Source: Lingula anatina (taxonomy: Eukaryota > Animalia > Brachiopoda). From it: a stretch of 64,000 nucleotides of DNA. Positions 28,835-51,845 of the stretch are shown here, piece by piece; the first letter of the stretch is position 1, and every line of letters begins with the position of its first letter. The position numbers and the translations under genes were made by a program. The notes under the pieces are model-generated. The model searched no databases and was not told the origin of the DNA. It saw nothing but the letters and a program-made list of their open reading frames with translations. The DNA is taken from NCBI GenBank assembly GCA_051362555.1, contig CM120642.1, positions 13,764,001 through 13,828,000 on the forward strand, read 5' to 3'.

Positions 28835-28926
28835 GCTCCTTTCCATAGTTTCACCACATTTTGATCAACCTGCATTTAGAGCTCTAAGGGTTCTTCGCCC
28901 TTTAAAATTAGTTACAGGGTTTGAGA
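28835..28926 (+). CDS. cac: Cav2 alternative exon 4a (IS3-S4: [31 protein letters not shown])
   Basis: tttctacag| acceptor, A|gtaagt donor, 92 nt, phase 2 to 1, open frame, S4 RxxRxxRxxK motif. Confidence 0.88.
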
Positions 28927-31503: not shown

Positions 31504-31613
31504 GTTTGTTACCCTCTTTATGGAGGGAGGGAGTGCAGACACAGGTTTCGACTTAAAAACCCTCAGAGCTGTCAGAGTTCTTCGGCCTCTGAAGCTGGTC
31601 TCAGGAATTCCAA
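31504..31613 (+). CDS. cac: Cav2 alternative exon 4b (IS3-S4: [37 protein letters not shown])
   Basis: ctaaccccgtag| acceptor, A|gtatgt donor, 110 nt, phase 2 to 1, canonical Cav2 IS4. Confidence 0.94.
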
Positions 31614-42418: not shown

Positions 42419-44185
42419 TTGCAAACTATCCACAAATTACACCATCATCACTGGAGTAATTTATGCTTAATTGGCCAATGGCAGCAGTGCTTTCACTTCT
42501 TACAATCATCGTTAGCAATTACCAAAAGAAAAGAAACTAACTCTCTTAGTATATATTTACCTCAAGTAATACATCTCGACAACTATTATTTGCATACTAA
42601 AAAGAAGATTGCTGGAAAGGGTAAAATGGGTTACAGACCTTAGCATATCATTGTCAGGGTAAGGTGGGCAAATATGTGAGAAATAGATATGCAGCACTAT
42701 TTATCTTCGCATGAAACAAAGTAATTTTATGCCTTTTGGTCAAGATTTTCATTGCATTTCCTGAATTTGATTATATGATGGGAAAACAATTTTATCAAGG
42801 TCATATAAACAATTTCTAATTGCATTTAGTTATCGAGATGTTGGCTTGATATGTATAACTCATTAATAACAGGCAGTGTTTTTTTTGTCATACCATATGA
42901 AAAAGTAACATTAAAAAAATGGTTACCTTTTATAGTTAGAGCCAAGTCATGTAACCCCTCTCTGTTTAATTTATGTGGACAATAAAGCTAACAGTATTCC
43001 TAGATGGTCCAGTGATTTTAGTTTTGGAGTAAATAATGTTAGGTTACATATTGTTTCAACTTACTACTTATCATATATTGTATTTTGTGTAGAATTAAAA
43101 TAGCAATACTTTTATTATTGTAGCTAGTATAATAACCCAAAAGTTGGTAGTTCAGTAGGCATTTGATTCATGTACTGATCTGAAAATGTATTATTAACAT
43201 AGCATTGAGATTATTGTTATTTTATGAAAGCAGTAGAACATTTTTTTACATTTCACAGTTCCAGTTGTAACTTGTTATGAATTGTATTGACTTAAGATTT
43301 AAGTACAAAACTACAAAGGCTGGTGAGATTGACACTAAGCCAAGGATATATTTTTTCTGTGCAAAAATGATACACAGTAGAACACGTACAGCAATGCAAG
43401 ACCATTGTTATAAGTTTCTTCGTGATAAAAATCTTCAATATTGAATAATTAATTATCTAAAATATTTTTAAATATTAAAATATAGTTGCTTGAAGTCTGA
43501 AGGAAAATGTGTTCAGTCATCACTCCAGGCCCACAGAGTTCTTTATTTTGGAGATGACATATGAAAAGATTTCACACCTTTCTAATTGGATTTAATAACA
43601 TACAGGTCACTATTATGCATTTGTTACTAAAAGAGAGGGAAATGTTTTCATTTCTTCATAGAAGCAGTGTGTTTCAAGGGATATAATTGTTTTACTGCAT
43701 AGTTTCAGCTGTATTTTGGGGTACTGATAGTATGTTCTTTCTTATTAAAGATAAGTATTAGTCAGTGAAGGGGGCATATGAATCACCTGGGAAAAACATG
43801 CAATGCCTATCATGATCATTATGCAAGAGCTTGTAGCTTTTGGCTTTCACACATATTAATTCAGAAATGGGATCCATTGGGTGATACAAAATGGAACATG
43901 TACATGTACCATGGTGAAGCTATTGCACATTTTTTTTACCTGGACTTGGTAATTTTTCATCATTATCTATTTCTCTTAGGTGACGGCTTTTACTACTAAG
44001 GGTTGATGAATGTTCAAAAAAAAAATTGTTATAATTTTTCATCCAGTTCAATCAAGTGTGTTATGACTTTTTTTACTTCATCATGTGCAGGGCATGTGAT
44101 TCAAGATAATCATTTTGTTTATAAAATTTTTAAAAAATTGTGCATTACAAGATCGTTTAAGTCTTTCTTAAATGTATCTTTATAG

Positions 44186-44273
44186 GGAACCCATTTAGTC
44201 CAAATGCATTTGGTTTAAAGCCTAGGAAAAGGAGGAACACCTGTCCTTGTTGGAGAACAGAGCGTAAATTTAG
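44186..44273 (+). CDS. cac: Cav2 exon 11 (GNPFSPNAFGLKPRKRRNTCPCWRTERKFR)
   Basis: ctttatag| acceptor, AG|gttagt donor, 88 nt, phase 1 to 2; WRxE+xFR pre-IIS1 motif. Confidence 0.88.
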
Positions 44274-46044: not shown

Positions 46045-46395
46045 GTATGTGTTTCATTTTTAATGATGTGAATTAAAGTAGGAAAAGTGGGTAGTGCTCA
46101 TCATTAGAACATTTTTATTCAATTTATATTGGTGGACATTCAATAAAATGCTATTTACTTGCCTAATATATGTAAAAGTTTAATTTAAGATTTTTTGTCC
46201 TTCATCATTTTTATCATTATTGAAGAATATCCATAATTAGGCCTAGGGTCCCTCACTTTTCTTTTCCTGTTCTGGAAATGTATTCAACCACATAAAATTG
46301 TATACCTGTTTTAAGTTTGCATTCAATTAAAAAGCAAAATGATTGAATATCAATTTTGTTTTCAAATGTTAAATAATTTACAACGTGTGTTCCAG

Positions 46396-46527
46396 ATATT
46401 GGTCCTCCTTGCGAAACTTGGTGATATCTTTACTCAGCAGTATGCGTTCCATTGTCAGTCTGCTGTTCCTGCTCTTCTTGTTCATTGTCATCTTTGCCTT
46501 ACTGGGGATGCAGCTCTTTGGAGGAGA
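46396..46527 (+). CDS. cac: Cav2 exon 15 (IIS5: [43 protein letters not shown])
   Basis: ttccag| acceptor, GA|gtaagt donor, 132 nt, ends phase 2. Confidence 0.96.
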
Positions 46528-47696
46528 GTAAGTATTTAGCTAGGGGTTGGCTGTGGGAGATGATGGAAGGAGGATAAGGGGGCAACCTTTGACATATATA
46601 TAGATAATCTATATTCTGTAGAATCAATTTTAAGTTTTTTTGAAAAAGAATCGATTCAAAGTTGTTGAAATGTAACTTACCAACTTGCCTCCTTGCTATT
46701 TTTAATAAAAAGTGGGGGAAAGGGCATTGAATACTTTGGAAATGTATTTAATAATGAAAATGATGTTGCAGTCACTTTTTGAGGTAAGATTAGTCATTAT
46801 GGGTTATTTTCTGACCAGAAGTGAAACAGGGTATCTGATATACATATAAGTTACATAACTGTCAGTTATTTCAGAAGTTTTACACACATATATTTTTATT
46901 ATTGCAAAAGTGTAGTAAATGATTAATACATCTTGATGTGGTGATATAATCTTTTAAAGATGAACAGCGTAAAAAGGTAATATAATATATATTTTGATAA
47001 AATTTCATGGATAATCTATTATAAGTAAAATTGAAAAGTAAACATGCATATTTACCTGTCAAAGGTGAGTTAATTTACATATTTCTTTGGCTGATCCTTT
47101 GATTGACATATTTGAGGAACAGAAAATTACGTAGGTGTTCATAACTAAAATGATTGTAAATTGTTCCTAGAAAAACATCTTGTCATGAATTCAAGGGCAA
47201 CTTTTTAAGTCTTGCCAGTTCAAGAGAATCTAACTATCAAACCAGAAATCTTCAGCTATAATATCTTATTATTTATGAATATGGAAAGCCTCCCTGTTTG
47301 TTATGTTCCTCAGATATGCAAAGAAAAAGGAAAACGCTTCAGGGTCAGTTAGTAAAGGATAATACTTCAGTTGGAGACATTGCCTGTAGCTGTAACATTT
47401 GACCAACTAGGTATAACATTTTCACCTTGGTATGAGGGTTTTACACCTTGGCTCCAATTTGTGATATACCAACACAGAAGATATAGGGAATATATTTTAA
47501 AAATATGTTTTTGAAAACCTCTCATGAAAAATTATTATATTGAGGCTTGGTTGTTAAAGTACCAAAGATAAATAACAAAGTTTGTATATTAATTTGTAAA
47601 CATATATATAGAAGTTTATCTTCTGAGTTGGATGTATTACATTATAAAACTGCATACATTAATATTCCATCATTTCTGCTATTTTTCCGCCTGTAG

Positions 47697-47769
47697 AATG
47701 AACTTCGAGGAAGGACGGCCTCCAATGCACTTTGATACTTTTTTCATGGCAGTTATGTCCGTGTTCCAG
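47697..47769 (+). CDS. cac: Cav2 alternative exon 16a (domain II turret/P1 helix: MNFEEGRPPMHFDTFFMAVMSVFQ)
   Basis: tttttccgcctgtag| acceptor, CAG|gtagag donor, 73 nt, phase 2 to 0. Confidence 0.9.
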
Positions 47770-48593
47770 GTAGAGATAGTTGCCTCGCACATTGCACCTC
47801 ATATCTTCCATATATAGAAGTGATTTAGTTCCAGTTAGTACCATATATGGTGACAATGACCATACTTGGAAATGGCATTGAAACCACATGTGCAAAACCT
47901 AATATAAGCCACCAACAAGTTTTCCTTAAATGAGAAGCATTTTATGTAACTTGTCTTTTTGAAACCATTATGACATATAAAGAAATGTTAATTAATATCC
48001 GCAAATTACATTTTCAAGTCGTTTAAAATGTCAAAAGGCCTCCAGCAAAGAAATTTTTGTCAATTGCTATTATATTTGAAAAACTAAATGTTTGAAACAC
48101 CTTTTATCTTGACTGAAAAAGAATTGTTTTAAATTTGTGATATTTTTGTAAAAAATTTAGTATCATTGTCATATTTGATAAACAAAAAGATACAGACTTG
48201 ACATACAAAACTGCTTCTTGTTATAATTAGTTTTAGAATGCACTAATTTTGGGATATGATGAAGCAGATATTTTGGTATCAACTAATTCAAACAAAATTG
48301 AACATATCATTCTCAACTAATTTTGTCACAAATCTTATTTAAAATTGTTTGGAATAAAAAAGTCTGAAATATCCAAAATGCTGCTTGGTCATATTTTTGT
48401 GGTGGAAGTGTGATGGGTCACTAATATGATATTTCTTTCTTAGTTCAGTTTTATTTATAGTTTTGTTTAAAATTCAGGGTGTCTCTCGGTTTGCGTGCCT
48501 CCGTTTGGTTTTGATATGTTGGTGATGTTTTTAACTACCATTATTGTCAATATTGTTATCTTTTTTCATTTTTATTTATCTTTCGTCCTGCAG

Positions 48594-48669
48594 ATGGAAT
48601 GATCTTCCAGACGGCCGGCCTCAACTTAATTTTGATACTTTCCCCATTGCCTTGTTGACAGTATTTCAG
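48594..48669 (+). CDS. cac: Cav2 alternative exon 16b (domain II turret/P1 helix: WNDLPDGRPQLNFDTFPIALLTVFQ)
   Basis: Long pyrimidine tract plus ctgcag| acceptor, CAG|gtacac donor, 76 nt, phase 2 to 0. Confidence 0.92.
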
Positions 48670-49957
48670 GTACACATCTGATGAAATTTGACAGGAACTA
48701 AATTGTAACATAATTATGCCTTTATGAAACAAAGTCAAGGTCATGTGGGAGATGGTGTTATTTGTAAAAGTGTTTTATTTTCACAGTTTATGATACATAA
48801 AACCAAATTTTTTTGTATTGAAAATAGTTCTCACCCTTAATATTATTCCAACATACTTACAAATTTGAAAATGTATGGCAAACTAGATTAAGGTTTTTCT
48901 TATAGCCATTCTATACAAAACAGAAATATGCACAAAAGAAGTAAAAATAAATGTGCACCATGCTCTTAGGTTCCAATCCTAAATCAAAGATTTAGCTGTT
49001 TTGATTAAATATTTTTGCTACTACAGAAGAATAGATATATGTCAATATCACTCCACTGTGTCCACGGGCCTTTTTCACATGAAGTATTTTCTGGGTGATA
49101 CAGTTGTAAAGGTTACCATATGTTTTGAGAAATTGAGAACTAAATTTATAAAAACATTGGTTATTACATAAAATTCACCTAAATAGAGCCACTTTTCACT
49201 GCAAATTACAGCAGGTAGCAAACTCGTATAGAATTTGTGAAAGGGAGTAAAGTCCCCTGTAATGTAAATGCATGGTAAACCTCTCAAATTGTACTTAAAC
49301 AGCTGTATTACGAAGACATAATGCTAGATGTGAAAAGGCTTTTGTTTAAACATCTGTGTTTAGATTTTTAACTATAGAAATTGAATATCATTGTATAATC
49401 TAGTATGAACAGTAAGTAAATTCTGGTGAAAGGCAACTTGAACAAATTCAAACAAAATAAAACAACAGCACTGAATATAAAGTACTGGATACACTTGCTG
49501 TAAAATGGAAAAAACATTTTTTTTGGCCTTTTGGCTATATATTTGATTAAATTAATTTGGTTTAGGATCATTCTGAATGAGCATGGTTCATGATCAAAAT
49601 GCCCCCCCCCCTCATCCAAGACACCATCTTCCATCTTGATCTTAACACCTCAGTGGGTAAAAACTACTGTTACCATGGAAAACATACAATCGATGTCCAA
49701 CGATGTGTGTCTGCATTGCTTATCCTCAGTGTACCACTGTAGTAACAAATTTAACTTGTTTCTGTTCCCCTCTCAGTTTCCATAAAAACCAATACATATA
49801 TGTGCCCTTCATGTCTACTGGTTACTTTAGTCTTTTGTTATTAATTATTACTGTTACAGAAAAACATGAATACAGTTATCGATGTGAAAATTTTGGAGCG
49901 TCATGGTCACTTACATCTGCTCTTGAAATACTATAGCTATCTGACTATGACGTCAAA

Positions 49958-51445: not shown

Positions 51446-51566
51446 ATCCTCACTGGAGAGGACTGGAATGTGTTGATGTACAATGGAATTGTCTCCAGAG
51501 GTGGAGTCAAAGGGGGTGGCTTATGGTACTGCTCATATTTCATTGTTTTGGTGCTATTTGGTAACT
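51446..51566 (+). CDS. cac: Cav2 exon 17 (domain II filter and IIS6: [40 protein letters not shown])
   Basis: ttctttcag| acceptor; ends T|GTATCCTT (U12 donor); 121 nt. Confidence 0.96.
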
Positions 51567-51744
51567 GTATCCTTACTTGCTCAATGGTGAAATAGTTTCA
51601 GATATCAAATATTCATTCTAGTACCTGTAAATGACAAAAATTATTATTTTTGAGAATATGTATAATATTCACTAAGATAAATTTATCAGAATATTAGTTT
51701 TATATTTTGTGCTCTTGTCCTCTTTCCTTAACTGAATCCTTCAG
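51567..51744 (+). other. U12-type GT-AG intron, 178 nt
   Basis: 5' GTATCCTTAC; branch TTTCCTTAAC 12 nt upstream of the junction. Removal restores FGNY-TLLN. Confidence 0.93.
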
Positions 51745-51845
51745 ATACTCTATTAAATGTCTTCTTGGCTATCGCCGTTGACAACCTGGCAAATGCTCAA
51801 GAGCTCACAGCTGCTGAGGAGGAGGAAGAAGATGAAGGAGCAAAG
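51745..51845 (+). CDS. cac: Cav2 exon 18 ([34 protein letters not shown])
   Basis: U12 branch TTTCCTTAAC (51723-51732) plus cag| acceptor; AAG|gtatgt donor; 101 nt. Confidence 0.95.

What the first reader, a model, noticed from the sequence alone, without database searches (positions are those of the whole stretch)
47697..48669. Duplicated, mutually exclusive exons swap the domain II turret and pore helix of a Cav2 channel
Seen: two homologous exons with intact splice sites between the IIS5 and TGEDW exons, 16a MNFEEGRPPMHFDTFFMAVMSVFQ (73 nt) and 16b WNDLPDGRPQLNFDTFPIALLTVFQ (76 nt). Both run phase 2 to 0, so including both or skipping both shifts the frame. They differ in length and charge, and at conserved positions (NFDTFP vs HFDTFF; LLTV vs VMSV) just upstream of the filter Glu. 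Known: invertebrate Cav3 channels (Lymnaea exon 12a/12b) switch the domain II turret to change Na+/Ca2+ permeability, and NALCN uses alternative pore exons. I do not recall an equivalent switch in Cav2. Inference: a splice-based switch of the outer pore that could tune conductance, selectivity or sensitivity to pore-blocking peptide toxins.
Basis: partly seen in the sequence, partly recalled or inferred. Interest (0 to 1): 0.85.

Follow-up and report, generated by a model that had tools for sequence, protein, structure and literature searches.

The report
Twin pore exons, brachiopod calcium channel
A lamp-shell (brachiopod) gene for the synaptic calcium channel Cav2 carries two intact, long-diverged copies of the short exon that builds part of the outer pore, so it likely makes two interchangeable channel versions, predicted to differ modestly in blocker and partner contacts rather than in which ion they pass.

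Summary
The window is the Lingula anatina Cav2 gene (RefSeq XP_013405220.1). Exons 16a (47697-47769, 73 nt) and 16b (48594-48669, 76 nt) have AG/GT ends and the same phase. Either alone gives an open frame; both or neither gives a stop. The copies are old (45 of 72 nt alike, synonymous sites saturated, flanks unalignable), yet both keep the family pattern, which points to selection on both. RefSeq uses 16a only. Spliced 16b was not shown: 44 RNA reads were laid and no joint was listed. Thirteen genomic loci of other animals and the mollusc and nemertean isoforms I saw have one version each. The Cav3-like ion switch is not supported: net charge is equal, neither exon has Lys or Cys, and the EEEE filter and its adjacent Asp lie outside the pair. 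A modest retuning of the outer vestibule and pore-helix packing is more likely. A weak tree hint puts 16a with molluscs and 16b with annelid-like exons. My literature searches found no description of this pair. The scan noted an analogous Cav1 pair in another genome before.

The parts
46396..46527 (+). constitutive upstream exon (IIS4-S5 linker and IIS5, ends ...GMQLFGG plus 2 nt)
   Evidence: matches P0003 residues 778-821; AG/GT ends; 3 RNA reads carry the preceding exon's end in front of it (loose ends)
47697..47769 (+). exon 16a, 73 nt, MNFEEGRPPMHFDTFFMAVMSVFQ: L5II turret plus first part of the P1 helix; ancestral length, derived helix
   Evidence: used in RefSeq XP_013405220.1; 53.0 bits to relatives' profile; 5 reads over 47716 in run X7 and no depth in the bin beyond 47783
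48594..48669 (+). exon 16b, 76 nt, WNDLPDGRPQLNFDTFPIALLTVFQ: alternative copy; one-codon in-frame insertion in the turret, family-typical helix
   Evidence: 50.7 bits to relatives' profile, AG/GT ends, open frame; absent from the one RefSeq model seen; splicing not shown
51446..51566 (+). constitutive filter exon ILTGEDW...FGN with domain II filter Glu and adjacent Asp; followed by a GTATCCTT (U12-type) donor
   Evidence: only one copy in the window
51745..51844 (+). next constitutive exon (end of IIS6)
28835..28926 (+). second duplicated exon in the same gene: alternative IS3-IS4 exon (92 nt, phase 2 to 1), not in the RefSeq model
   Evidence: a like exon is in a Pomacea RefSeq isoform
31504..31613 (+). 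annotated IS3-IS4 exon (110 nt, phase 2 to 1), partner of the above

Best explanation
The Lingula Cav2 gene holds an old tandem duplicate of the exon for the domain II turret and first pore helix, and the two copies are likely spliced one-or-the-other into two calcium-selective channels predicted to differ modestly at the outer mouth. Shown: two intact same-phase exons; only single inclusion keeps the frame; deep synonymous divergence with the amino-acid pattern kept. Inferred: exclusivity comes from ordinary splice-site competition, with nonsense-mediated decay removing double-inclusion and skipped messages. The 824-nt spacer is too long for steric exclusion, the flanking introns are all GT-AG major type, and no competing RNA pairing was found. 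Also inferred: 16b alters the turret surface (one extra residue; Gln instead of Pro at the site of Cav2.2 Thr643, a peptide-toxin contact; this loop also touches alpha2delta). 16a alters P1-helix packing (F-M-A-V-M-S for P-I-A-L-L-T). The expected effects are on surface delivery, blocker sensitivity, conductance or inactivation, not a Ca-to-Na switch.
For: Frame test. Divergence between copies: 45 of 72 nt, pS 0.75, pN 0.28, flanking 150-nt introns no more alike than shuffles. Neutral-decay control: 0 of 20000 simulated copies stay intact with at least 16 of 24 majority residues at distance 0.5 or more (53 of 20000 at 0.3, 853 at 0.2). 16b's length change is exactly one codon against 73 nt in 13 of 13 relatives' loci. 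16a is in RefSeq; the one difference read in it in RNA is synonymous, against 9 intronic differences listed in the same run. Mapping to Cav2.2 residues 638-659 puts 16b Gln on Thr643. The review PMC10761187 (passages) names Thr643 as a ziconotide-coordinating residue and ECLI-III as alpha2delta contacts. The same gene has a second duplicated exon (IS4), a known Cav2 habit in Drosophila. No docking-site pairing above shuffles.
Against: No read shows 16b spliced: 44 reads were laid in 4 runs, no joint passed the 3-read threshold, and most reads were intronic. No protein holding 16b was found (a weak search, 7 hits, all single exons of other animals). The pair was not seen in any relative examined, so there is no cross-species proof of function. 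Most differences are conservative and occur in single-exon relatives (H 10 of 22, P at turret position 4 6 of 22), so the biophysical effect could be nil. No function was measured.
Confidence: 0.58

Rival explanations
1. 16b is a silent relic: it was the working exon until 16a took over, and it has not yet decayed or is used only at trace level.
For: The RefSeq model uses 16a alone; no spliced 16b read; no 16b protein found.
Against: Synonymous saturation with intact splice sites, a 20-of-25 pyrimidine tract and 18 of 24 majority residues require selection until recently. RefSeq also omits the alternative IS4 exon that a Pomacea isoform uses. RNA depth was too low to test.
Confidence: 0.17
2. 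Both exons are used but are functionally equivalent; the duplicate persists by splitting expression or by giving a frame-coupled way to regulate message level.
For: Equal net charge, no Lys or Cys, mostly conservative changes.
Against: 16a carries S where 37 of 37 distinct stored exon peptides have T, and V and F seen in 0 of 37. 16b has L where 22 of 22 have F, plus an insertion. Each copy has left the family pattern in a different half.
Confidence: 0.17
3. The pair is an ion-selectivity switch like Cav3 exon 12a/12b, one isoform passing substantial sodium.
For: Same region of the channel (IIS5-P1 loop) as Cav3 exon 12 (PMC4436565, PMC9694082, passages); 16a's helix departs from the family pattern.
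Against: No lysine or cysteine in either exon, the one Arg is shared, net charge is equal; the EEEE filter and adjacent Asp are constant; His at the 16a position is also in Lymnaea Cav2 and other single-exon molluscs.
Confidence: 0.06
4. The second copy is an assembly artefact (two haplotypes placed in tandem).
For: None beyond the general risk in polymorphic marine genomes (recalled).
Against: Copies are only 45 of 72 nt alike with unalignable flanks; RNA reads of two public runs (X1, X7) lie on the spacer and on the 16b region.
Confidence: 0.02

Closest known systems
Cav3 (T-type) exons 12a/12b of protostome invertebrates (Lymnaea LCav3)
   Same: Alternative exons for the domain II S5-P1 loop, ending before the filter residue (PMC4436565, PMC9694082, passages).
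   Different: The Cav3 exons are about 41 and 52 aa, cysteine-rich, and switch selectivity through one lysine against the filter-adjacent Asp on an EEDD filter. Here they are 24 and 25 aa, with no Cys or Lys, equal charge and an EEEE filter, in a Cav2 gene, and seen in one species only.
NALCN exons 15a/15b
   Same: Duplicated domain II pore exon in lophotrochozoans (PMC4436565, passages).
   Different: The NALCN pair changes the filter residue itself (E or K); here the filter exon is single.
Drosophila cacophony (Cav2) IS4A/IS4B and I-IIA/I-IIB
   Same: Mutually exclusive exon pairs diversify an invertebrate Cav2 gene (PMC11828482, PMC12370356, passages); the window also has an IS4 pair.
   Different: Those lie in the voltage sensor and the I-II linker. 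PMC11828482 states cac has only these two mutually exclusive sites, none in the pore. Several fetched loci have no intron at all between the IIS5 and turret coding parts.
Lineus longissimus Cav2 RefSeq isoforms with two domain I turret/P-helix versions
   Same: Alternative pore-loop segments in a spiralian Cav2 (P0260 against P0263).
   Different: Domain I, not II; predicted isoforms only, exon structure not checked.

Membership tests
Cav2 alpha-1 subunit | closer to Cav2 than to Cav1 or Cav3 | tested here: met
   P0003 scores 2046, 2006 and 1955 bits to human Cav2.1, 2.2 and 2.3, at most 1512 to Cav1, at most 601 to Cav3
Cav2 alpha-1 subunit | EEEE filter ring | tested here: met
   TMEGW, TGEDW, TGEGW, TGEAW in P0003
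Mutually exclusive exon pair from tandem duplication | adjacent homologous exons, same phase, similar length, intact splice sites | tested here: met
Mutually exclusive exon pair from tandem duplication | double inclusion and skipping break the frame | tested here: met
Mutually exclusive exon pair from tandem duplication | each exon found alone in mature transcripts | tested here: inconclusive
   16a in the RefSeq model and partly laid reads; 16b not shown; no joint listed among 44 reads
Mutually exclusive exon pair from tandem duplication | physical exclusion device (steric, U2/U12 clash, competing RNA pairing) | tested here: not met
   824-nt spacer, GT-AG major-type introns; best joint pairing matched by 5, 14 and 18 of 20 shuffles; not required where frame and decay suffice
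Cav3 exon 12a/12b selectivity switch | turret lysine in one exon, neutral residue in the other | tested here: not met
   0 Lys in either exon
Cav3 exon 12a/12b selectivity switch | 3 versus 5 turret cysteines | tested here: not met
   0 Cys in either exon
Cav3 exon 12a/12b selectivity switch | measured change in Na/Ca permeability | not testable with these tools
   needs patch clamp
Cav3 exon 12a/12b selectivity switch | pair conserved across protostome phyla | tested here: inconclusive
   one copy in 13 of 13 spanning genomic loci, and one version per taxon in annotated isoforms; no mollusc-type locus was among the 13, and no brachiopod or phoronid genomic DNA could be checked
NALCN exon 15a/15b | alternative exon carries the filter residue | tested here: not met
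   the filter exon 51446-51566 is single

The most novel reading that the evidence does not exclude
The duplication predates the split of molluscs, annelids and brachiopods. Lingula keeps both members of an ancestral Cav2 pore-exon pair; molluscs kept the 16a (Met/His) type and annelids the 16b (Trp/Asn) type. The two Lingula isoforms differ measurably in permeation or peptide-toxin block, making this a pore-domain splice switch in a presynaptic Cav2 channel.
Probability: 0.15. Interest if true: 0.72.

Novelty: new variant of a known kind. Interest (0 to 1): 0.4.

Why it matters
[quoted passage not shown] A pore-side pair in Cav2 gives a natural two-variant experiment on how the short L5II turret and P1 helix shape conductance, alpha2delta dependence and toxin block in a synaptic channel. 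It also shows that the public model of this gene misses two intact alternative exons. The importance is limited by the single species, the lack of proof that 16b is used, and the absence of the residues that drive the known selectivity switch.

Tried and rejected
The run search listed no indexed RNA holder, only 9 raw-read runs by species label; 4 of the 9 were laid, on a stretch from the upstream exon to 16b, so joints to the filter exon could not be seen and the test is too shallow to decide (run X4 gave 0 reads). A word-based protein search with 16b plus 15 intron-derived residues gave 1 candidate and no hit, weak evidence. The full-library phmmer gave 7 hits, none a Lingula 16b. A second cluster look-up repeated the same isoforms, adding 2 proteins, so only 15 of 32 Pomacea, 15 of 33 Lineus, 15 of 59 Mytilus and 15 of 27 Ruditapes members were seen. 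The repeat finder did not list the exon pair among its 20 largest direct-repeat families and gave no inverted repeat that I could tie to both exons; competing-pairing test negative. Exon tree (24 columns): 16a with molluscs at 83/76, not starred; 16a+16b as one clade not rejected (p-AU 0.09). The primary papers on the ziconotide structure and on Cav3 exon 12 (2014) were not held. No structure or complex was predicted, because the 16b isoform exists here only as a joined sequence. Look-ups of earlier scan notes by place, genome and sequence were blank.

Full report
Identity. A 77-residue exon peptide of the window matches one protein at 100%: the Lingula anatina Cav2 alpha-1 model XP_013405220.1, held as P0003. 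Its residues 178-1024 map exon by exon onto the + strand from 4010 to 61850. It scores 1955-2046 bits against human Cav2 structures, at most 1512 against Cav1 and at most 601 against Cav3, and it has an EEEE filter.

The observation. The upstream exon ends GGA GA|GTAAGT at 46527. 16a is 47697-47769 (73 nt) and 16b is 48594-48669 (76 nt); both lie between AG and GT, with 20 pyrimidines in the 25 bases before the AG. The filter exon starts at 51446. Either exon alone gives an open frame through the next two exons; both or neither give an early stop. The RefSeq model uses 16a. Of 18 exons tested with profiles against all six frames of the window, only this exon and the IS3-IS4 exon have a second copy. 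One claim needs correcting: both peptides have 3 acidic residues, 1 Arg, no Lys and no Cys, so net charge is equal apart from one His in 16a.

Age and selection. The copies share 12 of 24 aligned residues and 45 of 72 bases; pS is 0.75 (saturated) and pN 0.28. The 150 bases of intron on either side align no better than shuffles (172 and 25 of 200 shuffles score as high). They are about as far from each other as from exons of other animals (36-53 of 72 bases over 9 loci). Against the column majority of 22 distinct single-copy exons from relatives, 16a keeps 16 and 16b 18 of 24 residues. A neutrally drifting copy kept its splice sites, frame and at least 16 such residues in 853, 53 and 0 of 20000 trials at distances 0.2, 0.3 and 0.5 or more. 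The model is crude (no indels, equal rates), but the conclusion that both copies were under selection after the duplication is robust. The copies diverged in different halves. 16b keeps PIALLTVFQ but has one extra turret codon and Leu where 22 of 22 relatives have Phe. 16a keeps the turret but has Ser where 37 of 37 distinct stored exon peptides have Thr, and Phe and Val seen in none of them.

Relatives. Annotated isoforms carrying this segment show one version per taxon: Pomacea 15 of 15 seen, Mytilus 16 of 16, Mercenaria 15 of 15, Ruditapes 13 of 15, Gigantopelta 11 of 13, Biomphalaria 5 of 7, octopods 6 of 7, Lymnaea 3 of 3, Lineus 15 of 15, cestodes 5 of 8. The rest gave no match to the pattern; the 7 that I read are fragments lacking the segment. 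Only part of the larger clusters was listed, and annotation is a weak test: Lingula's own model lacks both alternative exons. I picked by eye the 13 Cav2-type loci with an intron at the same place that also reach the filter exon (11 distinct exon sequences). All 13 have a single 73-nt exon; the best non-overlapping second candidate scored at most 2.6 bits (none in 4 short loci), against 50.7 in the window. Their peptides resemble annelid, vertebrate or unplaced forms; none is of the mollusc type, and no brachiopod or phoronid relative was found. A tree on 24 columns puts 16a with nine mollusc rows (83/76, not starred) and leaves 16b among Trp-type rows; forcing 16a and 16b together costs 8.4 log-likelihood units but is not rejected (p-AU 0.09). 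A brachiopod-lineage duplication and an older one with reciprocal losses both remain open; I favour the first on parsimony.

Expression. Nine raw RNA runs under the same species label were listed; four were laid on 46380-48700. In all 44 reads were laid (10, 3, 0, 31), mostly intronic, and no joint reached three reads. In run X7, three reads carry the preceding exon's end in front of exon 15. Five reads cover 47716, all with a synonymous change, and depth is zero in the bin after 47783, which fits splicing at 16a's donor but does not show it. By their letter counts the reads over 16b look unspliced (my reading of the depth table). Two protein searches for a 16b-containing product found none. 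Use of 16b is therefore unproven, and the test was too shallow to count against it.

Mechanism. The introns are 1169, 824 and 2776 nt, too long for steric exclusion, and are ordinary GT-AG introns. No intronic stretch pairs with the neighbourhoods of both exons better than shuffles (5, 14 and 18 of 20 as good). The simplest account is splice-site competition with nonsense-mediated decay of the out-of-frame products (established knowledge, inferred here). For function, 16b residues 6-27 of P0002 align without gaps to human Cav2.2 638-659, so Gln in 16b and Pro in 16a sit at Thr643. [quoted passage not shown] The Cav3 switch works through a turret lysine that neutralises the Asp next to the domain II filter Glu, in a cysteine-braced loop (PMC9694082, PMC10120453, PMC4436565, passages). 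Neither Lingula exon has Lys or Cys, the Arg is shared, and the Glu-Asp pair is in the constant exon. I therefore expect two calcium-selective channels with modest differences at the outer mouth and in helix packing. This is a prediction; nothing was measured. The one invertebrate-type Cav2 paper I read reports weak block by the standard omega-toxins (Trichoplax; PMC7939481, passages), so a toxin effect would need suitable peptides to show.

Literature. Eight searches bore on novelty; I saw their listings, and passages of the eight papers cited here (PMC6259924 included). None described a domain II pore-exon pair in Cav2. PMC11828482 and PMC12370356 (passages) give Drosophila cac two mutually exclusive pairs, IS4 and I-II. 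Subscription journals are largely outside the library, two primary papers were not held, and no supplements were read; a supplementary alignment could mention the pair.

Verdict. A real, old, probably functional duplicated pore-side exon in a brachiopod Cav2 gene: a new variant of a known kind. It is less striking than first proposed, because it was seen in one species, 16b use is not shown, and the residues behind the known selectivity switch are absent. Interest 0.4.

Noticed in passing
window 28835-28926 and 31504-31613: A second duplicated exon pair, for IS3-IS4 (92 and 110 nt, both phase 2 to 1). The upstream copy ends ...LKLVTGFES and resembles the alternative exon of Pomacea isoform P0125 (1 of 15 isoforms seen); Lineus also has two versions. 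It sits at the position of Drosophila cac IS4A/IS4B, so this pair may be old among protostomes. It is not in the Lingula RefSeq model.
   Followed up: partly
window 51567-51744 and after about 4210: Introns with ATCCTT-type donors. The one after the filter exon starts GTATCCTT and has a TCCTTAAC branch motif near its end, i.e. U12-type. The intron after the first IS1 exon shows an ATATCCTTT stretch at the site described as a U12 intron in PMC6259924. A GTATC start follows the filter exon in many relatives' loci.
   Followed up: partly
proteins P0260, P0263, P0258, P0265 (Lineus longissimus): Same-length isoforms differ in the domain I turret/P-helix segment, the I-II linker and IS4, suggesting further alternative segments in a nemertean Cav2, one of them in a pore loop.
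   Followed up: no
protein P0009 (Saccostrea cucullata): A Cav2-like protein with TGADW in domain II, i.e. Ala in place of the filter Glu.
   Followed up: no
proteins P0345, P0346: Open frames holding a Mytilus-type copy of this exon followed by two or three tandem partial repeats of its 3' half, a recent partial duplication at the same exon in a mussel-like genome.
   Followed up: no
L020, L023-L027, L032, L036: Cav1-type loci read TSEDW rather than TGEDW at the domain II filter.
   Followed up: no
window 44185-44271: A short exon in the I-II linker is poorly conserved in relatives (34 bits, with the Lingula row itself in the profile); no second copy of the I-II beta-binding exon was found.
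   Followed up: no
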